In this document: piece after piece, positions 2,155 through 36,955 of the stretch | Position numbering within the stretch: the first letter of the stretch is position 1 | Layout of the letters: every line of letters starts with the position of its first letter | Virus record (IMG/VR): IMGVR_UViG_2681813166_000002 | Location: 1 to 36,955 of that record | Direction: 5' to 3' (one strand) | Origin: a virus | Lineage: Duplodnaviria > Heunggongvirae > Uroviricota > Caudoviricetes | Length of the DNA: 36,955 nt | The notes under the pieces: model-generated | What the model saw: the letters and a program-made list of their open reading frames with translations, nothing else | What the model was told of the DNA's origin: nothing | Database searches by the model: none | Translations under genes and position numbers: made by a program

Positions 2155-2186
2155 GAAGAAAACCCGGCGCGGTGGCCGGGTTATGG
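2155..2186 (-). terminator. Intrinsic terminator after the rex-position cassette
   Basis: Minus strand CCCGGC-caccgc-GCCGGG followed by TTTTCTT, immediately after the stop of the 130-aa ORF. Confidence 0.5.
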
Positions 2187-2573
2187 TTTTTTCATGTATA
2201 AATTTACGAGCAAAGTTATGACTGGCATTGCAACGGATAAGAGAAGAATTCCGAGCATCCAAGCCTTTAAATTACCTGTTTTTACTTCGACAAAATCCTT
2301 ACTTGCTTTATGAGATAACTTTTCGTCAATATCTACAAGTTTTTGAAGTATCGTAGAAACATCAGTTTTTATAGAAGAGGTAATTTTTGTCAGCTCTCTC
2401 ACATCCGCGCGAGTTTCCGCTAAGTTTATCTTGATGTTTTCAACGTCGGCTTCAAGTTTTGCAACTCTGACCTCGAGCATGCCATTCCCCCCACCATCAC
2501 TACCACCGTTTTTATGGTTATTTCTATCATCCCCCTCAGGGAAAAGAGGAGCAATATTATCAAAAGGATTCAT
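2181..2573 (-). CDS. Hypothetical membrane-anchored coiled-coil protein (Gly-rich N-terminus, C-terminal TM helix)
   Basis: 130-aa ORF in an AT-rich segment; heptad-like LEVRVAKLEADVENIKINLAETRADVREL; hydrophobic tail WMLGILLLSVAMPVITLLVNLYM. Confidence 0.6.
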   Translation of the reverse strand: MNPFDNIAPLFPEGDDRNNHKNGGSDGGGNGMLEVRVAKLEADVENIKINLAETRADVRELTKITSSIKTDVSTILQKLVDIDEKLSHKASKDFVEVKTGNLKAWMLGILLLSVAMPVITLLVNLYMKKP

Positions 2574-2593
2574 TTATTCTGGCCCGGATGTCA

Positions 2594-2992
2594 TTATTGG
2601 TCAACTTCGTTATTCTTTAGCCAGTAGAAAACAAGCCATGCCAAATAACTTGTAACGAATCCGCAATGTTTGCATATCACTCTAAACTCATAATCCATTA
2701 AGTTTTCTTTTGTCATATTCCATTGCTCATTACTATGTGGAGCATCAACCTTGTAAAGCCTTAAAACAGTATATTTTTCAATATTATTAAGATCTGTTTT
2801 CCCTTCCTTGCTGTTGAATTTATCCCAATGCCAGTCTTGCACTGCTATAAGTTCAGCCTTACCGCAAGATAAGCAGTTATGATTTGCCCCAACATGCTTT
2901 AAATATGCAGAAAATTGAGCGGTTGTAATATTTTTCACTTTATTATGAAAATCAGATACTTCATCACTTACAGATTTGTCATCATTACTCAT
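2594..2992 (-). CDS. Hypothetical zinc-ribbon protein with hydrophobic C-terminus
   Basis: 132-aa ORF in an AT-rich segment; two CxxC pairs (CLSCGK, CKHCGF); C-terminal YLAWLVFYWL. Confidence 0.6.
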   Translation of the reverse strand: MSNDDKSVSDEVSDFHNKVKNITTAQFSAYLKHVGANHNCLSCGKAELIAVQDWHWDKFNSKEGKTDLNNIEKYTVLRLYKVDAPHSNEQWNMTKENLMDYEFRVICKHCGFVTSYLAWLVFYWLKNNEVDQ

Positions 2993-3067: not shown

Positions 3068-3760
3068 TTATCCATGCTTCCTGTACGTCTGCGGCATGCT
3101 CCCGATGACTTTCCCGAAGATGAACACTCGGTTCATCTCGTCTTTCTCGATCGGGTCCCACGGTGAGTAGCTCTTGTTATCAGAGATAACCAGCAGCTTA
3201 TCCTTCATCATTTGCAGACGTTTTACATGAGCGGTTTCGTCGTAGAGGAACGCATAAATCCCATCGCCGTCGAACGATTTGACGCTGATATCGACGAACA
3301 GCAGGTCACCTGGTTCGATCGTTCCTGACATGCTGTCGCCACGCACGTTAATAATGCGGATGTTTTCTGCTTTGCGGCCATCAAACATGTGACGCGCATC
3401 ATCATGGGAGTACTCAACCGATCGCAAAACTTCAACGAACTCACGGTTAATGACGCCTGGCCCTGCACTTACTTCCATATCAAGAACGTCAATCTTGAAG
3501 TATTTGGAAGAGCAGGTCGCCGGTTTTCCTGGCTGAACGCCATTATCCCTCATAGGGCCTATGCCTGAGGAAAGCCATTCAGTGCGAACCCCAAGTGCAT
3601 TAGCGATTTCGACAATTCTTGTAGATCCGCGTGCATTGCCGCTTGTCAGTCTCCAGATTGTGGGTTGAGCTACACCAGACGCCTTTGCAAGAGCGCCTTG
3701 AGACATTCCAGATTGTTCCATCGCTAGGTTTAAGCGATCAGCAAGAGTTTCTTTTTTCAT
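3068..3760 (-). CDS. cI: CI-type prophage repressor (HTH plus S24 LexA-like peptidase domain)
   Basis: HTH-like N-terminus (QGALAKASGVAQPTIWRL) and C-terminal S24-like segments (GDSMSGTIEPGDLLFVD, VKRL); start set at ATG 3760 (MKKETLADR...); the ORF track extends to a TTG at 3796. Confidence 0.88.
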   Translation of the reverse strand: MKKETLADRLNLAMEQSGMSQGALAKASGVAQPTIWRLTSGNARGSTRIVEIANALGVRTEWLSSGIGPMRDNGVQPGKPATCSSKYFKIDVLDMEVSAGPGVINREFVEVLRSVEYSHDDARHMFDGRKAENIRIINVRGDSMSGTIEPGDLLFVDISVKSFDGDGIYAFLYDETAHVKRLQMMKDKLLVISDNKSYSPWDPIEKDEMNRVFIFGKVIGSMPQTYRKHG

Positions 3761-3870
3761 AAGTTTTAATTTATACGCTTGCGTATCGATGGTCAAAACA
3801 CGTTTTGCTATTGCTATGCTTAATACGCATTGCTATTATTTGTTCATTGCAATACCAATAGGAATTGATA
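3761..3870. promoter_or_regulatory. OR region with divergent pRM (leftward) and pR (rightward) and repeated operator motifs
   Basis: pR: TTGCTA (3811-3816), 17-bp spacer, TATTAT (3834-3839). pRM on minus strand: TTGACC (3791-3796) and TATAAA (3770-3775). Repeated TTGCTATTGCTAT and CATTGCTATTAT motifs; ATTGCAAT palindrome. Confidence 0.55.
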
Positions 3871-7036: not shown

Positions 7037-8455
7037 TTAGAAAATAATGTTTGCTATATCCGAGATAGCATTTAAAGAACCTCTGTGGTCACTTCCTGTT
7101 TTAGGTAAAATATAGGAATATCGAGGGTCTTCATTATATGTTAACTTCCAGTGTTTTCCATCGCTTGACGCACTGAAACCTAAGTCCTTTAAATTTCTTT
7201 GTGTTGCGCTATCCATGCTTCTGTAACCTGTTAAAGTCCTTTTAAGTAATTGGCGGCGACTCTCGGTTTCTTTATTGTATTCATTATTGGCAATTAGGGA
7301 TGATAAGATATGGTAGCTTCTACCAAATTCATTTTTATTTTTTATGGCAGTTTTTAGTGCGTCAATAATTATATTTTTGATTTCTCCATCAAAAAAGTCA
7401 GTCTCTTCACCAGCATTAAGCACAATGCTTCCTTGGGCTGAAGCTTGTGATTGAAGAGTGCGTACTCTGTGCTCTAAAGAGGAGATCTTATGCTTAAGAT
7501 CTTCTATTTGGTCATCTTTCGCAACATTATCGGCTTCGTAAAGCGCCATCAGTTCGCGTGTGTATTCTCCTCTTTCTTTGAGTGAGTTAATAGAGTCTTT
7601 CGTTTTTCTGGTTTGTATCTCACTCCATCCACTATCTGAGACAGGAGCCATTGTAGTCGTAGCTCTTACAACATCATCAAATAACTCATCTTCAAATTCT
7701 TTTGCGGTTTTCTCACCACGGCGATAAAAACTGATATTTTGACCCCGTGGCCAATAGATACCAACAGCACCAGCATAGGCATTTTTAGCATTTGTCTCAT
7801 TTTTTAGCTTAATAGAAAATAGTCTATTGCTAGGCTCAATTAATACATGTGCTAATCCGCATACCTTTCTTGCAAGGCGTTCTGGGATGATATTGTGAGC
7901 ATGTTCATTAAAAAAATACTTGGAGCTAACGTATATTATTGGTAGTCTGTTGTCAGTTTCACCATTTATAACTTTAGCTGCTATATTTAAATGTTCATCA
8001 GTATCATCTAAGGAATGAGGTTCGACTGACACCTTGAAAATATCATCAAGACCACCAGAAAATTTATCAATCAATCTCATAACAACTAATGGTTTCTTAG
8101 GTTGCGGGGCTAGATAAGCTGCATCTTGGCTTACAACGCTAGATTCCACCTGAATCCACATGGTATCAGTTTTGAGATTTTTATTAATTGAAATATCTGT
8201 TACCCATTTGTGTGGCTCAGATATTTTCGAATACCTAAAACAGCCTAAACTAGTATCTTTGTTTTTATAAGTTATTATATCAATTCTTTCATTTTTAGAC
8301 TCTATGAAGTACTCCTCGCTTTTATAATCACATACTAATTGTGCTGGAATAAAAGTTGTATGTGGTGAGTCGTTTACCCAAGAAAAACATTCATTAAAGA
8401 TCTCAGCTAGAGATGTGGAGTTTGAAACATAAAAACCAGTTGAGAAATATTTCAT
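7037..8455 (-). CDS. Hypothetical 472-aa orphan protein, candidate accessory or defence gene
   Basis: Long intact ORF in markedly AT-rich DNA, opposite strand to flanking phage genes; AAGGAAA RBS 7 nt upstream of ATG; no motif I recognise. Confidence 0.75.
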   Translation of the reverse strand: MKYFSTGFYVSNSTSLAEIFNECFSWVNDSPHTTFIPAQLVCDYKSEEYFIESKNERIDIITYKNKDTSLGCFRYSKISEPHKWVTDISINKNLKTDTMWIQVESSVVSQDAAYLAPQPKKPLVVMRLIDKFSGGLDDIFKVSVEPHSLDDTDEHLNIAAKVINGETDNRLPIIYVSSKYFFNEHAHNIIPERLARKVCGLAHVLIEPSNRLFSIKLKNETNAKNAYAGAVGIYWPRGQNISFYRRGEKTAKEFEDELFDDVVRATTTMAPVSDSGWSEIQTRKTKDSINSLKERGEYTRELMALYEADNVAKDDQIEDLKHKISSLEHRVRTLQSQASAQGSIVLNAGEETDFFDGEIKNIIIDALKTAIKNKNEFGRSYHILSSLIANNEYNKETESRRQLLKRTLTGYRSMDSATQRNLKDLGFSASSDGKHWKLTYNEDPRYSYILPKTGSDHRGSLNAISDIANIIF

Positions 8456-9997: not shown

Positions 9998-10134
9998 TGT
10001 TTGAGTCTTATATGGCAGAACGTCTTCGCCACCGCTGGATGCGCCTGCGCTTATATCGTTTCCCCGGTTCTGTTTTGACCGATTACCGAATACTGAGGAA
10101 TTACGCCAAAACACTGAAAGGAGCTGCCGCATGA
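9994..10134 (+). CDS. ylcG: YlcG-like small protein (46 aa)
   Basis: Translated by hand: [46 protein letters not shown]; ATGA overlaps with both neighbours. Confidence 0.6.
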
Positions 10135-10820
10135 ATACCCAATATTTACAGTATGTCCGCGAGCAACTCATGGTGGCTACCGCTGACTTGAGCGGAGCAA
10201 CGAAAGGCCAGCTTGAAGCCTGGCTGGAGCATGCACAATTTGATACTGGTACATACAAACGAAAGAAGCGACGCATTCTGGATGAGGTAACTGGCAAGAT
10301 TATTATGCTGGATAATCCGCCGATTTCCGGTAAACAGTCGTACGCAAAAGGTTCATCTGTCGCCCTGATCAGTCCGGTCGAGTTTTCAACCTCTTCATGG
10401 CGCCGCGCTGTTCTGTCTCTCGATGAGCATCAGAAAGCATGGTTGCTGTGGAGTTACAGTGAAAATATTCGCTGGGAGCATCAGGTTGCCATAACGCAGT
10501 GGGCATGGAGCGAGTTTAAGACTCTGTTGGGTACCAGAAAAATTGCAGGTAAGACACTGGAACGCCTGAAGAAGTTGATCTGGCTGGCGGCACAGGATGT
10601 GAAGAGCGAACTGGCAGGGCGTGAGGCTTATGAATACCAGGAACTGGCGTCACTGGTGGGAGTGACATCAAAAAACTGGTCTGAGACATTCACTGAACGC
10701 TGGGTTGCAATGAAGCACATTTTTCTACAGCTTGATAGCGAAGCTTTATTGCTTCTAACGAGAACACGTTCAAAACAAAAGGCGACATTTTCACAGCAAA
10801 ATATTGCAAAGCTGGATTAA
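10131..10820 (+). CDS. Putative late-gene antiterminator Q-like protein (229 aa)
   Basis: Position between rusA/ylcG and the late promoter/lysis genes; no motif verified. Confidence 0.5.
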   Translation: MNTQYLQYVREQLMVATADLSGATKGQLEAWLEHAQFDTGTYKRKKRRILDEVTGKIIMLDNPPISGKQSYAKGSSVALISPVEFSTSSWRRAVLSLDEHQKAWLLWSYSENIRWEHQVAITQWAWSEFKTLLGTRKIAGKTLERLKKLIWLAAQDVKSELAGREAYEYQELASLVGVTSKNWSETFTERWVAMKHIFLQLDSEALLLLTRTRSKQKATFSQQNIAKLD

Positions 10821-12719: not shown

Positions 12720-13115
12720 TTACGCAATGAGGCTACCAGCTAATGTACATAAATGCGGCCAGAGTGGCGTAAGAACAGTGACATGATCTGATAGTGATGA
12801 CATTAATTTAATGTATGAGTTTGAGGCGCTCTCTTTAGATGGAGCCGTTTTAATTTCGTCAAGTTTGTTATTAATTTCATTTTTTAATTTTTCATCAATG
12901 TTCAAGTTTAATAATTGAATTTTAGTTTGTTCTAACACAGTTAGCGCGTCTAAGCTGATAACTTGAACTGAAGAAAACTTATTATTGTAAGCTTCATCGA
13001 AGCGAATGCCTACGTCATATCCTACCGATGTTATGTTAGAAAGGTGATTTCCAAAACCCTTTTCAATATAAATCCCTGTAGAGGGCAGAGAAGGTGCATT
13101 TTTGTCTTTACTCAT
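12720..13115 (-). CDS. Hypothetical 131-aa protein (moron between lysis and packaging genes)
   Basis: Minus-strand ORF whose 5' two-thirds lie in AT-rich DNA with its own AT-rich upstream region; helical, charged repeats (IDEKLKNEINNKLDEIK). Confidence 0.45.
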   Translation of the reverse strand: MSKDKNAPSLPSTGIYIEKGFGNHLSNITSVGYDVGIRFDEAYNNKFSSVQVISLDALTVLEQTKIQLLNLNIDEKLKNEINNKLDEIKTAPSKESASNSYIKLMSSLSDHVTVLTPLWPHLCTLAGSLIA

Positions 13116-22921: not shown

Positions 22922-23277
22922 TGGCCCGTATCGGGGGAACCTGTTATTTCAAAATTGACGGTCAGCAGCTATCGCTGACCGGCGGCATTGAGGTGCCCAT
23001 GAACAGGACGGTCAATGATGACATCATCGGCCTGGACGGTTCAGTGGACCGCAAGGAAACTCACCGTGCGCCCTATGTCAAAGGGACCTTCAAGGTGCCG
23101 AAGAATTTTCCGGTGAGCAAAATCACCTCGTCTGATGAGATGACCATCACTGCCGAGCTGGCGAACGGTCAGGTCTATGTACTGTCGTCTGCCTGGCTGC
23201 ACGGCGAAGCGAACCATAATGCCGAAGAAGGCACGGTTGATCTTGAGTTCCACGGTGAAGAAGGGGATTACCAGTAA
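22921..23277 (+). CDS. Tail tube protein
   Basis: 118-aa ORF directly after the sheath gene. Confidence 0.8.
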   Translation: MARIGGTCYFKIDGQQLSLTGGIEVPMNRTVNDDIIGLDGSVDRKETHRAPYVKGTFKVPKNFPVSKITSSDEMTITAELANGQVYVLSSAWLHGEANHNAEEGTVDLEFHGEEGDYQ

Positions 23278-23546
23278 TGAAAGAGCTTGAGTTAAAGAAA
23301 CCGATTACTGCTCATGGCGAGACACTCTCCGTACTTGAGTTTGATGAGCCCACCGGGAAAGATGTCCGCGAGCTGGGGTATCCCTACCAGATGAATCAGG
23401 ATGAGTCAGTCAGACTTCTGGCGCATGTGGTATCGAAATACATTGTGCGGCTGGCGAAAGTGCCGCAAAACTCTGTCGACCAGATGTCTCCGGCAGACCT
23501 GAATGCTGCGGCGTGGCTTGTGGCTGGTTTTTTCCTCCAGGCCTGA
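23277..23546 (+). CDS. Tail assembly chaperone (G-like)
   Basis: 89-aa ORF between tube and tape measure genes; overlapping -1 frame ORF downstream. Confidence 0.7.
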   Translation: MKELELKKPITAHGETLSVLEFDEPTGKDVRELGYPYQMNQDESVRLLAHVVSKYIVRLAKVPQNSVDQMSPADLNAAAWLVAGFFLQA

Positions 23547-23695
23547 CGGCTGAATACCTCACTGATCGCTTCTTTGACTGCGCCAGTTACTGGCGCATTA
23601 ATCCCTTCGAATTGCTGAATATGCCGATCAGTGAAATTCCCTTGCTGGTCAGTCAGGCAAACAGGATAGAGCAGGAGAAACGCACACATGGCTGA
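23528..23695 (+). CDS. Frameshift extension of the tail assembly chaperone (T-like, -1 frame)
   Basis: Slippery heptamer T_TTT_TTC at 23528-23534; the -1 frame stays open to 23695, overlapping the tape measure start. Confidence 0.55.
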   Translation, partial: FFPPGLTAEYLTDRFFDCASYWRINPFELLNMPISEIPLLVSQANRIEQEKRTHG

Positions 23696-25520
23696 ATTTG
23701 AGCTTAAGGCGTTGATCACCGGTGTCGACAGACTTTCTCCCGCGCTGTCGAAAATGCAAAAGAAAATCCGGGGATTTAAACGCCAGGCGGAAGAAGCATC
23801 ACAGGGTGGGCTGGCGCTTGGTGGCGGACTGGCAGCGGGTCTGACGCTTTCCCTGAAATCTTATGCCGATCAGGAAAACGCCGCCACCGGGCTGAAAGTC
23901 GCCATGATGGATGCGAACGGCGAGGTCGGAAAGAGCTTTCAGGACATCAATAAACTGGCTATTGGCCTGGGTAACCAGCTACCCGGTACAACGGCTGATT
24001 TCCAGAACATGATGCAGATGCTGGTGCGTCAGGGGATCCCGGCAGAAAATATTCTTGGCGGTGTGGGTAAAGCGACAGCTTATCTTGCGGTACAACTGAA
24101 AAAAACACCGGAAGCGGCTGCTGAGTTTGCTGCAAAGATGCAGGATGCTACCGGAACGGCGTCAGAAGACATGATGGGGCTGTTCGACACTATCCAGAAG
24201 GCGTTTTATCTGGGCGTTGACGATACCAACATGTTGTCCTTCTTCACTAAAACCAGTTCTGTTCTGAAGATGGTGAACAAGGACGGTCTTCAGGCTGCAC
24301 AGAGCCTTGCCCCCATCAGCGTCATGATGGATCAGATGGGGATGAACGGGGAGTCGGCAGGTAATGCCCTGCGAAAAGTTATCCAGTCCGGATTAAGCGT
24401 TAAGAAAATCAGGGACGTCAATAAAGTCATGGCCCGCCAGAAACTCGGAGTGCAGCTCGATTTTACTGACGGCAAAGGGAGTTTTGGCGGTCTTGATAAC
24501 ATGTTTAAGCAACTGGCAAAGCTGCGAAAACTGACCGACGTTAAGCGAACAGGTGTACTTAAGGCAATATTTGGTGATGATGCCGAAACCCTTCAGGTGG
24601 TCAATGCTCTGATCGATAAAGGAAAGGATGGTTACGATCAGATCCAGCAGAAGATGAATAAACAGGCCAGCCTGAATAAACGTGTTCAGGCACAGCTTGG
24701 TACGCTGTCCAACCTGTGGGAGGCAATGATGGGGACCGCAACTAACGGTCTTGCAGCTATTGGCGGCGCATTTTCTGGTGACGCTAAAAATATCACGCAA
24801 TGGCTGGGGGAGTTGGGGGAAAAATTCACGAAGTTTGCGGATGAAAATCCCCGGGTTATTCGCGGCGTCGTCGGGCTTGCTGCCGGTCTTGCGATTCTGA
24901 AACTGGGATTGATGGGCGTGGGCAGTGCCATCAGTATTGTCAGCAGGATCATGTCGATGACGCCGATTGGCATGATTGCGACGGCGATTGCTCTGGCTGC
25001 GGGATTAATTATCACTAACTGGGATGTAGTTGGACCTTATTTTAAGAAACTCTGGGAAACCATTGGTCCTTATTTTGAGGCTGGCTGGGAACTCCTTAAG
25101 AAAGTTTTTGCCTGGTCGCCGCTGGGGATGGTGATCAATAACTGGGGACCGGTTGTTAAGTGGTTTCAGGATATGTGGGATAAGCTGAAGCCGATTATTG
25201 AATGGTTTACCGACAGTTCCGGTGACACGGTCGATACCATTAACTCGGCGCAGTGGGGCGCGGGTGCTTATGATGCTTATGGGACGGGAATACCGGCACG
25301 GGGATACACTCCTTATCCGGCGGTGGATCCGGCTCAGGCAAACAACGCCTCCGATGCCACAGGCTCGAATCCCTTCATGATTAATAAAGCTACCGCGCCA
25401 AAAGTTGATGGTGAGATCAAGGTATCATTTATAAATATGCCACCAGGTATGCGGGTTACGGAAACACGCTCCAGTGGCATTGATATAAATCACGATGTTG
25501 GCTATACCCGATTTTGGTAG
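23688..25520 (+). CDS. Tail tape measure protein
   Basis: 610-aa ORF, Ala/Gly-rich helical with hydrophobic central segments. Confidence 0.85.
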   Translation: MAEFELKALITGVDRLSPALSKMQKKIRGFKRQAEEASQGGLALGGGLAAGLTLSLKSYADQENAATGLKVAMMDANGEVGKSFQDINKLAIGLGNQLPGTTADFQNMMQMLVRQGIPAENILGGVGKATAYLAVQLKKTPEAAAEFAAKMQDATGTASEDMMGLFDTIQKAFYLGVDDTNMLSFFTKTSSVLKMVNKDGLQAAQSLAPISVMMDQMGMNGESAGNALRKVIQSGLSVKKIRDVNKVMARQKLGVQLDFTDGKGSFGGLDNMFKQLAKLRKLTDVKRTGVLKAIFGDDAETLQVVNALIDKGKDGYDQIQQKMNKQASLNKRVQAQLGTLSNLWEAMMGTATNGLAAIGGAFSGDAKNITQWLGELGEKFTKFADENPRVIRGVVGLAAGLAILKLGLMGVGSAISIVSRIMSMTPIGMIATAIALAAGLIITNWDVVGPYFKKLWETIGPYFEAGWELLKKVFAWSPLGMVINNWGPVVKWFQDMWDKLKPIIEWFTDSSGDTVDTINSAQWGAGAYDAYGTGIPARGYTPYPAVDPAQANNASDATGSNPFMINKATAPKVDGEIKVSFINMPPGMRVTETRSSGIDINHDVGYTRFW

Positions 25521-25611
25521 CCAGAATTCCCCTCACATGTATTGCTGGTTGTAAGTCATAAATAGAGTGATAGAATTAATGCACATTTAGAAAAATGTTA
25601 ATAGGCGAAAA

Positions 25612-26142
25612 ATGAAAGGCTATATCACAGCAAGTGTAATTCTTGGAGTAGCGGCTATTTTTTCATCTCTCATAATCTCTGGCAACATCTCCTTTAAAGA
25701 TGAACATATTATTCAGTTATCTGGAGGAGCTATAAAACTTGGTGATGTTTATAAAGAAAATAAATTGATAAGTGCAAAGATTATTTTTCCAGATAATCAG
25801 GGTGAACAGATTCTTGTTGTCGACGGCAATCCTGAAAACTTTAAGGAGGATTTTCAGGAGAAATTAAATAAAGTAATAAAAACTTTAAATGCGTCAAAGA
25901 AAAAAGATGAAGAGAAAGTTAGCCTGGATAATTTAAGTGTTATTGAAGAGTCTAAACTAGAGCTCGTTTCTGCGGTGCGTTACTCTGCTCAGTATGTTCC
26001 TATGTTTACTCTGACGCTGGACAAAAAAGAAATTACCATGCCTAAAAATACGGTAATATTTCCATTTGCCAGCGATGAAACAGCTAAGTATTTAAATGAA
26101 CAACAGCAAAAGTATAAAGATTCGTTGTTTCTGACTCGCTAA
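25612..26142 (+). CDS. Hypothetical membrane-anchored moron protein (176 aa)
   Basis: AT-rich ORF with N-terminal TM/signal anchor ASVILGVAAIFSSLIISG, own RBS and own terminator, inserted between tail genes. Confidence 0.65.
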   Translation: MKGYITASVILGVAAIFSSLIISGNISFKDEHIIQLSGGAIKLGDVYKENKLISAKIIFPDNQGEQILVVDGNPENFKEDFQEKLNKVIKTLNASKKKDEEKVSLDNLSVIEESKLELVSAVRYSAQYVPMFTLTLDKKEITMPKNTVIFPFASDETAKYLNEQQQKYKDSLFLTR

Positions 26143-26159
26143 TTAATAAAATTCATTAC

Positions 26160-26190
26160 AAGGCCACCTTCTAATAGGTGGCTTTTTTAT
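26160..26190 (+). terminator. Intrinsic terminator after the moron
   Basis: GCCACCT-tctaat-AGGTGGC followed by TTTTTTATTTT. Confidence 0.65.
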
Positions 26191-26203
26191 TTTCGGAGTG
26201 TAT

Positions 26204-27532
26204 ATGACGTGGAAAGACAGGCTTCAGGATGCGTCATTTCGAGGTGTGCCGTTTAAGGTTGAAGAAGAAAGTGCGGGAACCGGCCGTCGTGTGGAAACAC
26301 ACGAATATCCGAACCGCGACAAACCCTATACCGAAGATCTGGGAAAAGTCACTTTCCGCCCGTCCATCACAGCTTATGTGGTGGGAGATGACTGCTTTGA
26401 CCAGCGCGATCGCCTGATTGAAGCGCTGAATAAACCCGGTCCCGGCACGCTTGTCCACCCGACATATGGTGAGCTGAAAGTCTGTGTTGACGGGGAAGTT
26501 CGGGTCAGCACATCGAAAAGTGAAGGGCGTATTGTCCGCTTTGACCTGAAGTTTGTCGAAGCGGGAGAACTCTCTTACCCCACATCAGGTGCGGCGACGG
26601 CGCAGACGCTGATGTCATCCTGTTCTGCACTGGATGACTGCATCAGTGACAGTTTCAGTGGTTTCAGTATCGATGGCGTGGCAGATTTTGTGCAGAACGA
26701 CGTCGTCGGTAATGCCGGCACAATGCTTGGGTATATTTCTGATGCGATGAAAGTGGTGGATTCTGCCGTATCGGATGCCGCCAGGCTGTTGCAGGGGGAT
26801 ATCTCGGTACTTCTGCCGCCGCCATCGTCAGGCAAAAATTTCGTTGAGCAGGTGCAGAAAATGTGGCGTACCGGGAAACGCCTTTATGGTAACGCCAGCG
26901 ACCTGGTCACCATGATCAAAACGCTTTCCGGTGTCAGCCTCGGCAGCGATCTGCAACCGCGCGGCGTCTGGAAAACGGACAGTAAAACCACCGCTACGGC
27001 GACGCAGCAGCGTAACGTGGTTGCCAGCACCCTTCGTACGACCGCAATCAGCGAAGCGGCGTATGCCGTCACCCGATTGCCTGCGCCAACAACTTCCGCG
27101 GTGATGCAGAATGCCGCAGTAGGGCAGGCAACAACAGCTGCGCAGAGCACCGGCTGGCCTTCCGTTACGCATCCGGCACTGAACAATGCACCGGCGGTGA
27201 AAAACACGGTTGATCTGTCGACGTGGGAAGAACTGACTGACATTCGCGACACACTGAATACGGCAATTGATAAGGAGTTGTCCCGTACAACCAGTGATGC
27301 GCTGTTTCTGGCGCTGCGCCGGGTGAAAGCAGATCTGAATGCGGATATCAACACGCGCCTTGAACAGTCTGCACGGATCATTCAGCGCACGCCGGATGAG
27401 GTTTTACCCGCGTTGGTGCTGGCGGCGACCTGGTTTGATAACGCGGCGCGTGACGCGGACATTATCCGGCGTAATGCCATTACGCATCCCGGCTTTGTGC
27501 CGGTGATCCCTCTGAAGGTGCCAGTGCAATGA
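26204..27532 (+). CDS. DNA circulation protein (Mu gp43-like)
   Basis: N-terminus MTWKDRLQDASFRGVPFKVEE, the characteristic motif of this family; GGAG RBS. Confidence 0.85.
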   Translation: MTWKDRLQDASFRGVPFKVEEESAGTGRRVETHEYPNRDKPYTEDLGKVTFRPSITAYVVGDDCFDQRDRLIEALNKPGPGTLVHPTYGELKVCVDGEVRVSTSKSEGRIVRFDLKFVEAGELSYPTSGAATAQTLMSSCSALDDCISDSFSGFSIDGVADFVQNDVVGNAGTMLGYISDAMKVVDSAVSDAARLLQGDISVLLPPPSSGKNFVEQVQKMWRTGKRLYGNASDLVTMIKTLSGVSLGSDLQPRGVWKTDSKTTATATQQRNVVASTLRTTAISEAAYAVTRLPAPTTSAVMQNAAVGQATTAAQSTGWPSVTHPALNNAPAVKNTVDLSTWEELTDIRDTLNTAIDKELSRTTSDALFLALRRVKADLNADINTRLEQSARIIQRTPDEVLPALVLAATWFDNAARDADIIRRNAITHPGFVPVIPLKVPVQ

Positions 27533-33699: not shown

Positions 33700-34584
33700 T
33701 TATCTTACAGCTGGTGTTTGAGGTGGCTTCGTTTTCGTTTTTTTCACGCCCTTGTTTTTTACTATTTCCAGTGCCCTTTTCTGAAGGTCTACTCCTGATG
33801 GATAGAGCACGTTGAGAATGTGCTCAGTCAGTCGGTACGCATCAAACAGATCACTTTGAGTTAAACCTGATGCTGCGTGACTCCCTTCATTACCTAACCA
33901 CTTAACAGCAAATAAAAGTCCATCTAACTTTCCAAATGTTTTTTTTCTATGTGCAGCTATGGTAATTCGTTCATGAAGAGACATGAGGCACCGCTCGCGC
34001 TTGGACTTACCCTTCCGCTTAATTAATTTGTATTTTGGTATATTGTATTCAGATAAAAGATTCTCTATTGCCATTCTAACCTTGTTTGCTGCTGAGCTTG
34101 GCGAAAGTAGTGTCAGTGAAAATGCTTCTTGCAAATTCTCATATACTTCAGATGGACATGTTGTGGGGATATCTATGTACTGTAGCGGAGGGATAAATAC
34201 TTTGGGGATGTAATAGCTAAAGTACTCCTGTATCTGTTCATCTCGATCATTTACAGTAATATCCATCTCAACATAACCAGTGCCTGAGCAGACGACAACT
34301 TCCTCGCATTCATGATTTTCGCATACCAGAACCGCAGTAAAAACCTCTTTAATCAGTTCTGTATCGGAGCCGAGAATCTCAATAAGATTATGTGATTCAC
34401 TAGTTACCTTTGCATAAAATTTTTCTTTATTTAATTTCAAACTGCTTCTTCCGCAACTTGGGCACGGGTATGTCACGTAGTCATTTACTTTGAAAGGTTT
34501 ACCAATTGAAAACTTATCCATTTTTCTCTCGTTAATTTCTCTATGAATGGTTGCTACTGAGTTTACCAACACTGTGTTTTGCAT
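33700..34584 (-). CDS. Hypothetical 294-aa protein: N-terminal zinc ribbon plus C-terminal helical domain with an R-x5-H motif
   Basis: AT-rich ORF; CPSCGR...CENHECEE cysteine cluster; C-terminal ERITIAAHRKK and KWLGNEGSHAAS. Confidence 0.7.
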   Translation of the reverse strand: MQNTVLVNSVATIHREINERKMDKFSIGKPFKVNDYVTYPCPSCGRSSLKLNKEKFYAKVTSESHNLIEILGSDTELIKEVFTAVLVCENHECEEVVVCSGTGYVEMDITVNDRDEQIQEYFSYYIPKVFIPPLQYIDIPTTCPSEVYENLQEAFSLTLLSPSSAANKVRMAIENLLSEYNIPKYKLIKRKGKSKRERCLMSLHERITIAAHRKKTFGKLDGLLFAVKWLGNEGSHAASGLTQSDLFDAYRLTEHILNVLYPSGVDLQKRALEIVKNKGVKKTKTKPPQTPAVR

Positions 34585-36208: not shown

Positions 36209-36955
36209 CTATCTATATAGCCTTTTTGCTAATGGTTCTATGGATGATGAATAGCAAAACTCTCTATTCATATTGTCTATCAATTCAAAAACTTGATCTT
36301 CAACCTCATAGTAATCATTTCTAGGCAATCGAGGATGGATTATTCCAAAATTTCGAAGCAAATTTGTGATGTTATTTTGATGTCTTACGTAAGAGAAAGA
36401 ACCTGATTTGGCTAGTGAACATGCAGTATTTGAGTCACTTATAGCACTGTTTAATTTTACAATCAGATTGCAGTAGTCTTGAGATATGGATGTAGAGCCA
36501 GAACGAGACTTATTAAAAATGATGTTATACCATTTGAATATATCAAATGAAGATGCGGATAGACGATCTCTTTTATTTATTTCGTATGATAAGTACTCTT
36601 GAAATATCTTAAAGTGTGATATATGGTTGCCAAGAGCTGACACGCTGACACTATTAGTATACCCAAGCAACGCAACAACTATTCCACCTATGCTAGCGAC
36701 TAACCCCAACAATATGAAAGTTGCTTGCAATATTAATATTGATTGTGAGTAACCTTTAGTAAAATTTGAAATGCAGGTATTATTGAAACAAAAACTCCGA
36801 TTAAAAAAACCTTCTTGCATTCCAGTTAAAATAAATGAAGTTACAAAAAGCATTATGCCTAGTGTAACAATAGTAATCAAACATAGAAGCAAGATTCTAA
36901 GAGAGTGTGAGTCTATTTTTTTTAGAAGGATATAACTTTTAAAAAAGTTTTTCAT
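36209..36955 (-). CDS. Hypothetical protein with two N-terminal TM helices and a soluble C-terminal domain (248 aa; start at window edge)
   Basis: AT-rich ORF; hydrophobic segments ILLLCLITIVTLGIMLFVTSFIL and ILILQATFILLGLVASIGGIVVALLGY; the ATG is the last three bases of the window, so the true start could lie beyond. Confidence 0.55.
   Translation of the reverse strand: MKNFFKSYILLKKIDSHSLRILLLCLITIVTLGIMLFVTSFILTGMQEGFFNRSFCFNNTCISNFTKGYSQSILILQATFILLGLVASIGGIVVALLGYTNSVSVSALGNHISHFKIFQEYLSYEINKRDRLSASSFDIFKWYNIIFNKSRSGSTSISQDYCNLIVKLNSAISDSNTACSLAKSGSFSYVRHQNNITNLLRNFGIIHPRLPRNDYYEVEDQVFELIDNMNREFCYSSSIEPLAKRLYR

What the first reader, a model, noticed from the sequence alone, without database searches (positions are those of the whole stretch)
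25540..26195. Membrane-anchored moron between tape measure and DNA circulation genes
An AT-rich 176-aa gene with its own RBS and strong terminator is inserted into an otherwise tightly packed tail operon. The protein has an N-terminal signal anchor and a charged, probably periplasmic domain. Morons at this kind of position in other siphoviruses and myoviruses encode superinfection exclusion proteins that block DNA entry, or lysogenic-conversion factors.
Basis: partly seen in the sequence, partly recalled or inferred. Interest (0 to 1): 0.55.

Follow-up and report, generated by a model that had tools for sequence, protein, structure and literature searches.

The report
Exported accessory gene in phage tail operon
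A small foreign gene, inserted into a swap-prone slot of an SfV-type prophage's tail operon, encodes a membrane-tethered periplasmic protein of an uncharacterised family that most likely keeps other phages out, though nobody has tested its function.

Summary
ORF 25612-26142 (176 aa, GC 0.34 against about 0.55 in the flanks) lies between the tape measure and DNA circularization genes of an SfV/SfI/SfII-type prophage. It has one N-terminal hydrophobic anchor and a folded domain of about 150 aa.

It is dispensable cargo, not a tail part:
- SfI, SfII, SfV and O157 prophages have an empty 60-bp slot.
- Other E. coli prophages carry four unrelated genes there. Three of those are also exported, and one matches a PHROG labelled "Sie-like".
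- Distant homologs sit in another myovirus baseplate operon, in Pseudomonas integrative elements, alone in a decayed Lelliottia prophage, and as a lipoprotein in a virulent Pseudomonas phage.

The gene is under purifying selection.

The gene's own promoter is plausible but unproven.

The family has no Pfam, NCBIfam, PADLOC or PDB relative, and PHROG 5485 lists it as "unknown function". The best reading is a moron encoding a periplasmic superinfection-exclusion protein. I put the moron part at about 0.9 and the exclusion function at about 0.45. It is a new member of a known kind, of moderate interest.

The parts
25509..25520 (+). Left junction of the cassette: the last codons and stop of the tape measure gene
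   Evidence: The tape measure C-terminal residues change with the cargo type...GYTRFW* here...GYTRFGR* in the empty slot...GYTHIGR* with the bPH cargo and ...GYTRFR* with the OB cargo. Homology between slot variants breaks here. The coordinates are approximate.
25521..25611 (+). AT-rich 91-nt upstream spacer (GC 0.33)
   Evidence: Spacers of 65-126 nt precede every homolog in the same slot.
25549..25576 (+). Promoter-like site TTGTAA-16 nt-TAGAAT with an extended -10 TG. Candidate own promoter, not proven.
   Evidence: It is the only + strand site with TG in the whole late operon. It scores 10/13, which 3% of shuffles of the spacer reach. A comparable or better site exists in L106, moderate ones in L010 and L014, and none in L006, L011 or L109.
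25603..25605 (+). SD-like AGG, 6 nt upstream of the ATG
   Evidence: GAG, AGG or AAGGA elements lie at the same distance in homologs.
25612..26142 (+). Gene X: 176-aa protein, member of PHROG 5485 (unknown function), identical to WP_000679479.1-type 'hypothetical protein'
   Evidence: Purifying selection is shown.
25624..25680 (+). Codons 5-23: N-terminal hydrophobic segment, either a signal anchor or an uncleaved or cleaved export signal
   Evidence: The 19-residue window has Kyte-Doolittle 2.23 and is the only hydrophobic segment. It is conserved in essentially all full-length family members. In the ventosus homolog it is replaced by a lipobox signal.
25690..26139 (+). Codons 27-176: predicted periplasmic alpha/beta domain (four N-terminal strands, helix, beta-hairpin, C-terminal helix)
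26160..26193 (+). Intrinsic-terminator-like hairpin (26160-26185) with a T-run. It is a backbone element of the slot and marks the right junction of the cassette.
   Evidence: Homology with empty slots resumes in the 3' arm at about 26177. Equivalent hairpins with different stems occur in the empty slot, the bPH slot, and the Leclercia, Edwardsiella, Lelliottia and L109 loci.
26195..26206 (+). GGAG Shine-Dalgarno and ATG (26204) of the DNA circularization gene, conserved phage backbone

Best explanation
Gene X is a moron. It is a horizontally acquired, self-contained accessory gene sitting in a cargo hotspot between the tape measure stop codon and a conserved intrinsic terminator in the late operon of an SfV/SfI/SfII-type temperate phage with a Mu-like contractile tail.

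Its product is exported by an N-terminal hydrophobic segment and stays tethered to the inner membrane. A compact alpha/beta domain of about 150 aa sits directly on the periplasmic face.

The most likely role (inferred, not shown) is superinfection exclusion. The periplasmic domain would interfere with an incoming phage after adsorption, at the stage where the tail tip, tape measure protein or ejection conduit crosses the periplasm and inner membrane. Alternatively it would act on a periplasm-exposed host factor needed for that step.

Transcription would come from a sigma-70 promoter in the upstream spacer during lysogeny (inferred). It would also come from Q-antiterminated late transcription, which reads through the terminator, during lytic growth (inferred from gene orientation and the presence of a Q gene).

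Shown: insertion and dispensability, foreign composition, selection, export signal, fold model, and occurrence in several kinds of mobile element. Inferred: topology, timing of expression, and the exclusion function.
For: Cargo, not structure:
- SfI, SfII and SfV are functional phages with about 97% identical head, tail and tape measure DNA, and they have an empty 60-bp slot. So do O157 and other prophages.
- Of about 1,068 of 5,426 E. coli genomes with this tail type, 175 carry X. Four unrelated cargoes occupy the same slot in others: hyp162 in 101, hyp164 in about 85, OB-fold in about 71 and bPH in about 26.
- GC3 is 0.29 against 0.55-0.66.

Autonomy:
- Distant homologs lie in a different myovirus baseplate operon, again as an AT-rich insert followed by a hairpin.
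- Others lie in Pseudomonas integrative elements without tail genes.
- One lies in a 770-bp remnant next to icd in Lelliottia, where only X survives intact and is still under purifying selection.

Extracytoplasmic location:
- There is a single N-terminal hydrophobic segment, conserved family-wide.
- The remote homolog in virulent phage ventosus has a lipobox in its place. Support is Foldseek E 3.8e-6 and TM about 0.6, profile hit E 1.2e-6, and hhalign E 1.7e-4.

Exclusion-type role:
- Four of five cargo types in the slot are exported or anchored.
- The OB-fold cargo matches phrog_8545 'superinfection exclusion Sie-like' at 2.8e-49.
- A homolog in a virulent phage argues for a phage-centred benefit over a host-centred one.
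- Precedents exist: the HK97 gp15 moron next to the tape measure gene (PMC3594210), and P22 SieA, Tuc2009 and TP-J34 Sie proteins whose blocks are overcome by changes in tape measure or ejection proteins (PMC10883804).

Expression:
- A Q antiterminator gene lies at 10131-10820.
- An extended -10 promoter-like site lies at 25549-25576.
Against: - The promoter-like site is not conserved in all homologs, and the pattern scans are not enriched over shuffles. Lysogenic expression is therefore unproven.
- The 'Sie-like' label of the neighbouring cargo type is an annotation, not an experiment. Its closest hits in sequenced phages are unannotated.
- Cleavage of the signal could not be predicted. The protein might be released as a soluble periplasmic protein and not anchored.
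- Retention in a decayed prophage and in islands fits any host-beneficial function, not only exclusion.
Confidence: 0.45

Rival explanations
1. A lysogenic-conversion or host-fitness factor unrelated to phage exclusion. A periplasmic, membrane-tethered protein would change envelope physiology, stress tolerance, colonisation or resistance to host factors, in the way lambda Bor and Lom do from the outer membrane.
For: X is retained intact and under purifying selection after the rest of the prophage has decayed in Lelliottia. Homologs occur in non-phage integrative elements of Pseudomonas. X is the commonest cargo of the slot in E. coli from humans, pigs, cattle and the environment. Morons with such roles are well known (PMC3594210).
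Against: A remote homolog is encoded by a virulent 97-kb phage that never lysogenises, where a host-fitness role makes little sense. The family recurs inside contractile-tail gene clusters of two unrelated designs. No similarity to any known virulence or envelope factor was found.
Confidence: 0.2
2. A late-expressed helper of the phage's own lytic cycle. It would be made only from the Q-antiterminated late transcript and act in the periplasm of the dying cell. One possible role is to stop progeny from adsorbing to or injecting into lysing cells and debris, as T5 Llp does. Another is to modulate lysis.
For: X is co-oriented with and embedded in the late operon, so it must be transcribed late. 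Several homologs lack any convincing promoter upstream (L006, L011, L109). A homolog occurs in a virulent phage.
Against: The orphan copy in Lelliottia and the copies in Pseudomonas islands have no late operon to ride on and are still maintained. This lineage has a good extended -10 promoter-like site. The slot also accepts cargo on the opposite strand, which must be independently transcribed. This reading overlaps mechanistically with exclusion.
Confidence: 0.15
3. Protection against non-phage envelope attack. X would be a periplasmic immunity or entry-exclusion protein against colicins, tailocins, contact-dependent or type VI effectors, or conjative DNA entry.
For: Small periplasm-facing, membrane-tethered proteins carried on mobile elements are the typical format of such immunity proteins (general knowledge). 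The Pseudomonas homologs sit among resolvase and nuclease cargo of integrative elements.
Against: No cognate toxin gene is adjacent in any of the contexts. There is no match to known immunity families. Placement in tail operons has no obvious link to these threats.
Confidence: 0.1
4. A tail or baseplate structural or assembly protein of this phage, such as a tape measure chaperone or baseplate accessory.
For: The position between the tape measure and baseplate-hub genes is the same in E. coli, Leclercia and Edwardsiella phages despite 40-55% identity. A distant homolog lies next to the spike gene of another myovirus.
Against: SfI, SfII and SfV make infectious virions without it. About 84% of E. 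coli prophages with this tail type lack it. An export signal places the domain outside the cytoplasm, where tails are not assembled. Homologs exist where there are no tail genes. Its composition is foreign.
Confidence: 0.03

Closest known systems
HK97 gp15 moron (YebO-like inner-membrane superinfection exclusion protein)
   Same: Both are foreign-composition single-gene inserts in the tail operon next to the tape measure gene of a temperate coliphage. Both products are small membrane proteins, and both genes are absent from close relatives (PMC3594210). gp15 blocks DNA entry in a way that depends on the incoming phage's tail tube and tape measure region (PMC10883804).
   Different: There is no sequence relationship: no shared Pfam or PHROG family. 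By my own knowledge, gp15 is much smaller and mostly membrane-embedded, whereas X has a 150-aa folded periplasmic domain. gp15 lies upstream of the tape measure gene in a siphovirus, while X lies downstream in a myovirus. X's function is untested.
T4 Sp (spackle) and Imm
   Same: By my own knowledge, Sp is an N-terminally anchored protein with a periplasmic domain that acts on the incoming tail tip by inhibiting gp5 lysozyme. That is the same topology proposed for X, with the same compartment of action. The review cited lists Imm and Sp as DNA-injection inhibitors.
   Different: No homology was detected. T4 is virulent and expresses these genes early. No tail lysozyme domain was detected in the tape measure, circularization or gpP proteins scanned here.
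P22 SieA
   Same: It is a prophage-expressed inner-membrane protein of about 160 aa that blocks DNA injection by relatives. Three sequence types under 30% identical perform the same job, showing how divergent such proteins can be (PMC10883804).
   Different: SieA has three predicted TM helices and no large periplasmic domain, whereas X has one anchor and a folded domain. No homology was found. SieA has a different genomic location and belongs to a short-tailed phage.
T5 Llp and Cor-type lipoproteins (receptor blockers)
   Same: They are small exported phage proteins tethered to a membrane. By my own knowledge, Llp is made by a virulent phage. The ventosus homolog of X is likewise a lipoprotein of a virulent phage.
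   Different: X itself has no Cys and therefore no lipobox. No homology was found, and no receptor is known.
phrog_8545 'superinfection exclusion Sie-like' OB-fold (PF12869) proteins
   Same: They occupy exactly the same slot in sister prophages and have the same architecture of an N-terminal anchor plus an exported domain of about 120 aa. They are AT-rich.
   Different: The fold and sequence are unrelated. They are encoded on the opposite strand. The label is an annotation whose experimental basis I could not trace.
Cargo hotspots of P2-like phages and P4-like satellites
   Same: The concept is the same: a fixed position in an otherwise conserved prophage backbone where unrelated accessory genes replace one another (PMC9122126, listed).
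   Different: This is a different phage type and position, inside the tail operon. The cargoes here are single small, mostly exported proteins and not multi-gene cytoplasmic defence systems. None matches PADLOC.

Membership tests
Moron (Juhala/Hendrix sense, as defined in PMC3594210) | Extra DNA present in one phage and absent at the same place in close relatives | tested here: met
   The slot is an empty 60 bp in SfI, SfII, SfV and O157 prophages, whose flanks are about 97% identical.
Moron (Juhala/Hendrix sense, as defined in PMC3594210) | Base composition different from the surrounding genes | tested here: met
   GC is 0.339 and GC3 0.294, against 0.51-0.59 and 0.55-0.66. X is the only AT-rich island in the structural operon.
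Moron (Juhala/Hendrix sense, as defined in PMC3594210) | Own promoter | tested here: inconclusive
   The site TTGTAA-16-TGaTAGAAT lies at 25549-25576 and its score is reached by 3% of shuffles. A good site exists in L106, moderate ones in L010 and L014, and none in L006, L011 or L109. The whole-operon scan is not enriched.
Moron (Juhala/Hendrix sense, as defined in PMC3594210) | Own terminator immediately downstream | tested here: met
   The hairpin at 26160-26185 with its T-run has dG -15.6 and z -4.55. Caveat: an equivalent terminator is already present in the empty slot, so it belongs to the backbone and is not cargo-specific.
Moron (Juhala/Hendrix sense, as defined in PMC3594210) | Expressed from the repressed prophage | not testable with these tools
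   This needs RNA-seq, 5'RACE or proteomics of an uninduced lysogen.
Injection-blocking superinfection exclusion proteins (HK97 gp15, P22 SieA, T4 Imm/Sp, Sie2009, Ltp) | Sequence or structural homology to a characterised member | tested here: not met
Injection-blocking superinfection exclusion proteins (HK97 gp15, P22 SieA, T4 Imm/Sp, Sie2009, Ltp) | Located in or on the cytoplasmic membrane, facing the periplasm | tested here: met
   This is by prediction only. It rests on a single N-terminal hydrophobic segment, conserved across the family and interchangeable with a lipoprotein signal in a remote homolog.
Injection-blocking superinfection exclusion proteins (HK97 gp15, P22 SieA, T4 Imm/Sp, Sie2009, Ltp) | Blocks phage DNA entry after normal adsorption | not testable with these tools
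   This needs efficiency-of-plating, adsorption, and K+ efflux or labelled-DNA entry assays.
Receptor-blocking phage lipoproteins (Cor, Llp) | Lipobox with an invariant Cys | tested here: not met
   X contains no cysteine. Only the remote ventosus homolog has the lipobox LLTGC.
Mu-type tail or baseplate structural proteins | Present in all phages that build this tail | tested here: not met
   X is absent from SfI, SfII, SfV and ST64B and from most E. coli prophages with this tail type.
Mu-type tail or baseplate structural proteins | Cytoplasmic protein able to join tail assembly | tested here: not met
   An export signal or anchor is predicted.
PHROG 5485 (unknown function) | Full-length match to the family profile | tested here: met
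   E is 6e-108 over 1-176 of 176. Distant members also hit it: P0040, P0031, P0057, P0070 and P0077.
Known anti-phage defence systems (PADLOC-DB 2.0) | Match to any defence protein model | tested here: not met
   X, two distant homologs and all alternative cargoes gave no hit at E <= 0.1.

The most novel reading that the evidence does not exclude
X is the founding member of a previously unrecognised family of periplasmic superinfection-exclusion proteins with a fold that has no solved relative. The family is tethered by either a TM helix or a lipid. It acts on the envelope-crossing step of phage DNA delivery and is traded among temperate myoviruses, integrative elements and virulent phages. 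The slot between the tape measure and DNA circularization genes of SfV-type phages would then be an undescribed hotspot dedicated to envelope-acting exclusion genes, with at least five unrelated cargo families.
Probability: 0.35. Interest if true: 0.6.

Novelty: new member of a known kind. Interest (0 to 1): 0.42.

Why it matters
SfV/SfI/SfII-type prophages are present in about a fifth of complete E. coli genomes and are the serotype-converting phages of Shigella. A swap-prone slot in their tail operon that carries mostly exported proteins would be a compact, easily screened source of envelope-level anti-phage functions. Current defence catalogues such as PADLOC do not cover these functions. 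That matters for predicting phage host range and choosing phages for therapy. X is the commonest cargo of that slot. It belongs to a family with no annotated function and no structural relative, so a single expression and plating experiment could assign a function to a whole PHROG. If no phenotype is found, it remains an ordinary uncharacterised moron.

Tried and rejected
- Family and defence libraries. Pfam, NCBIfam and PADLOC scans of X and of 65 family members gave nothing meaningful.
- Solved structures by sequence. The profile search against PDB sequences returned only noise.
- AFDB50. The Foldseek library was not available.
- Sequenced phages. tblastn of X and of the Pseudomonas homolog against 50,697 phage genomes found nothing.
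- Locus searches. The search for related loci with broad alignments failed for lack of conserved stretches. Single-protein scans with P0031 and P0027 found nothing.
- Remote homology between cargoes. Homology between X and the other cargoes of the slot, or the upstream neighbour in Pseudomonas, was rejected by hmmsearch, blastp and hhalign.
- Transposition. It was considered as the insertion mechanism and rejected, because no flanking direct or inverted repeats exist.
- L088 insert. The extra 745 bp in L088 looked like a second stacked cassette but is an IS200-family element.
- RNA elements. A known RNA element in the region was rejected; there are only sub-threshold leader-like hits on the hairpin.
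- Literature. Searches for the protein accession and for this hotspot found nothing.
- Cluster names. All members are named 'hypothetical protein'.

Full report
**1. What is in the sequence**

The window is a prophage of the SfV/SfI/SfII type. Its head-to-tape-measure DNA is 96-98% identical to those Shigella and E. coli phages. It has lambdoid control genes: a CI-like repressor at 3068-3796, an O protein, and a Q antiterminator at 10131-10820. It also has a large terminase and a Mu-like contractile tail.

At 25612-26142 (+) there is a 176-aa ORF, here called X. It lies between the tape measure gene (23688-25520, PF10145) and the DNA circularization gene (PF07157, probable start ATG 26204). 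X has GC 0.339 and GC3 0.294, whereas the seven surrounding tail genes have GC 0.51-0.59 and GC3 0.55-0.66. It is the only AT-rich island within the ~19-kb structural operon.

The neighbouring tail genes overlap or abut. X is set off by a 91-nt spacer upstream and 61 nt downstream. The downstream stretch contains a 10-bp GC-rich hairpin followed by a T-run (dG -15.6 kcal/mol, z -4.55). An SD-like AGG lies 6 nt before the ATG.

**2. It is a real gene**

Homologs of 40-58% identity exist in Leclercia, Lelliottia, Edwardsiella and metagenomes. Synonymous sites between them are saturated (pS 0.57-0.96) while pN is 0.08-0.31. For the least diverged pair, omega is 0.08. An exhaustive profile search widens the family to 77 clusters at 50% identity, almost all 165-195 aa.

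All full-length members share the same plan:
- a short basic N-terminus;
- a hydrophobic segment of about 18-20 residues;
- immediately after it, a motif N-[IV]-[IL]-x4-G-x-[VI]-[KR]-L-G-x-V-Y-x-E;
- further conserved positions at N93, Y124 and L134.

**3. It is cargo, not a tail part**

- The functional phages SfI, SfII and SfV have nothing in this position but a 60-bp spacer. The same empty slot is found in O157:H7 and other strains.
- About 1,068 of 5,426 complete E. coli genomes carry this tail type, and 175 of them carry X.
- In other genomes the same slot holds different genes. These are a bacterial PH-domain protein (PF08000, about 26 genomes), a membrane-anchored OB-fold protein on the opposite strand (PF12869, about 71 genomes), and two hypothetical proteins of 164 and 162 aa with classical Sec signal peptides (about 85 and 101 genomes).
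- All five cargoes are AT-rich (GC 0.31-0.39) and unrelated to each other.
- The left junction falls in the last few codons of the tape measure gene. The right junction falls in the 3' arm of the hairpin. No flanking repeats suggest transposition.

**4. Correction about the terminator**

The empty 60-bp spacer already contains a hairpin with a T-run just upstream of the GGAG-ATG of the circularization gene. It is identical in SfI, SfII and the O157 prophage and nearly identical in SfV. SfII's authors annotated it as a rho-independent terminator. Hairpins with different stems but the same position and T-run follow the PH-domain cargo, every X homolog, and the tape measure gene of Salmonella ST64B.

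The terminator is therefore a conserved backbone element, and cargo is inserted upstream of it. With a Q antiterminator present, late transcription would read through it. That is inference from established lambdoid biology.

**5. The family travels on its own**

- In Leclercia, Edwardsiella and 76 of 80 viral contigs, X sits in the same slot.
- A 28%-identical homolog is an AT-rich insert in a different myovirus baseplate operon. It lies between hub-like genes and the gpV-type spike and is again followed by hairpin, T-run, GGAG and ATG.
- Homologs of 24% identity lie among the recombinase, resolvase, nuclease and primase genes of small integrative elements in Pseudomonas, with no tail genes nearby.
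- In Lelliottia amnigena, a 770-bp remnant next to icd is all that is left of a prophage. It comprises the last ~31 tape measure codons, the spacer, an intact X and the hairpin. That copy still shows the signature of purifying selection.
- A remote homolog is encoded in the non-structural part of the virulent 97-kb Pseudomonas phage ventosus.

**6. Where the protein goes and what it looks like**

X has a single hydrophobic segment (residues 5-23, Kyte-Doolittle 2.23) and no cysteine. The rest of the protein is charge-balanced, with 22 K+R and 24 D+E.

The ventosus homolog has a textbook lipobox (LLTGC) in place of the anchor, followed by the family motif. Since a TM helix and a lipid anchor are interchangeable, the conserved domain must work outside the cytoplasm, tethered close to a membrane. 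Whether X's segment is cleaved could not be determined with the tools available.

Pfam, NCBIfam, PADLOC and PDB sequence searches are empty. The family corresponds to PHROG 5485, 'unknown function'.

**7. Most likely mechanism**

The following is shown: X is an autonomous, selected accessory gene of mobile elements, and its product is exported. A virion role is excluded by dispensability, by the export signal and by occurrence without tail genes.

The functional assignment is inference. I favour superinfection exclusion acting in the periplasm or at the inner-membrane surface on the DNA-delivery step of incoming phages. The reasons are as follows.
- Four of the five cargo types in this slot are envelope-targeted.
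- One of them matches a PHROG annotated 'superinfection exclusion Sie-like'.
- A homolog in a virulent phage argues for a benefit to the phage and against a benefit to the host's lifestyle.
- There are close precedents. The HK97 gp15 moron lies beside the tape measure gene. Membrane Sie proteins of P22, Tuc2009 and TP-J34 have blocks that are escaped by changes in tape measure or ejection proteins. T4 Sp acts on the tail tip from the periplasmic side (and my own knowledge).

Expression in the lysogen is plausible. The site TTGTAA-16-TGaTAGAAT at 25549-25576 is the only + strand site with an extended -10 in the late operon, and its score is reached by 3% of shuffles of the spacer. But the signal is absent upstream of some homologs, so a purely late role cannot be excluded.

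**8. Rivals**

- A host-fitness conversion factor fits the orphan copy and the island copies, but not the virulent-phage homolog.
- A late helper that protects progeny or modulates lysis fits the orientation and the promoter-less homologs, but not the orphan and island copies.
- Immunity against non-phage envelope attack has no supporting neighbour genes.
- A tail structural role is contradicted.

**9. Comparison and novelty**

As a genetic unit, X meets the defining features of a moron, except that its promoter is unproven and its terminator is shared with the backbone. It works like, but is not a member of, the known injection-blocking Sie families. Homology was tested and not found.

I found no paper describing this protein, its family or this hotspot.

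It is a new member of a known kind. The concept is ordinary, the family and fold are uncharacterised, and the slot with at least five alternative, mostly exported cargoes is a modest new observation.

Noticed in passing
window 25509-26193 and loci L002, L003, L004, L021, L023: The position between the tape measure and DNA circularization genes of SfV-type prophages is a cargo hotspot. It holds at least five unrelated AT-rich genes: X, bPH_1, a tRNA_anti-like OB-fold on the opposite strand, and two Sec-signal proteins of 164 and 162 aa. Four of the five are exported. The OB-fold copy in L004 is 5'-truncated.
   Followed up: partly
L088 4575-5275: In one IMG/VR contig an IS200-family element is inserted exactly in the T-run of the terminator downstream of X. 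Its transposase reads ...HTRWNCKYHIVFAPKYRR....
   Followed up: yes
window 36209-36955 (-): A 248-aa ORF at the right end matches the PADLOC model 2TM_IV at E 1.9e-82, which suggests part of a defence system running off the window. The whole right arm, 32.7-36.9 kb, is AT-rich and encoded on the minus strand. It includes a DUF4145 protein at 33700-34584.
   Followed up: partly
window 7037-8455 (-): A 472-aa ORF lies in an AT-rich island (6.6-8.7 kb, GC about 0.30) of the early region, on the opposite strand to its neighbours. It has no Pfam hit and a weak PADLOC hit to the candidate system HEC-07 (E 1e-9).
   Followed up: partly
window 12720-13115 (-) and 2181-2992 (-): There are two further AT-rich islands with small minus-strand ORFs. 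One (131 aa) lies between the lysis genes and the terminase. The other has two ORFs (130 and 132 aa) next to the repressor. These may be more moron-like cargo.
   Followed up: no
window 23277-23695: The tail assembly chaperone ORF (23277-23546) is followed by an overlapping ORF in another frame (23513-23695) that runs up to the tape measure start. This is the usual arrangement for a programmed-frameshift chaperone pair.
   Followed up: no
L006 8013-9808, L007, L008, L014: The Leclercia-type relatives carry two extra genes, of about 505 aa and 94 aa with no Pfam hits, between the DNA circularization gene and the gpP baseplate gene. The window and the E. coli phages lack them. This is a second variable position in the same tail operon.
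   Followed up: no
window 26198-26206: The mechanical ORF list starts the DNA circularization gene at GTG 26198. RefSeq and the conserved GGAG (26195-26198) point to ATG 26204.
   Followed up: yes
E. coli MS 69-1 records NZ_CP146678.1 (64 kb) and NZ_CP146675.1: The same X-bearing region is present both on the chromosome and on a 64-kb record labelled as a separate replicon. In all, 13 matching places lie on plasmid records. This could reflect an excised or episomal prophage, or an assembly artefact.
   Followed up: no
L015 5401-5943 and L018 5774-5974: In the Pseudomonas integrative elements the X homolog is preceded, on the same strand, by another small exported or membrane protein. In one element it is 180 aa with a Sec signal peptide, in the other 66 aa and strongly hydrophobic. 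It is unrelated to X.
   Followed up: partly
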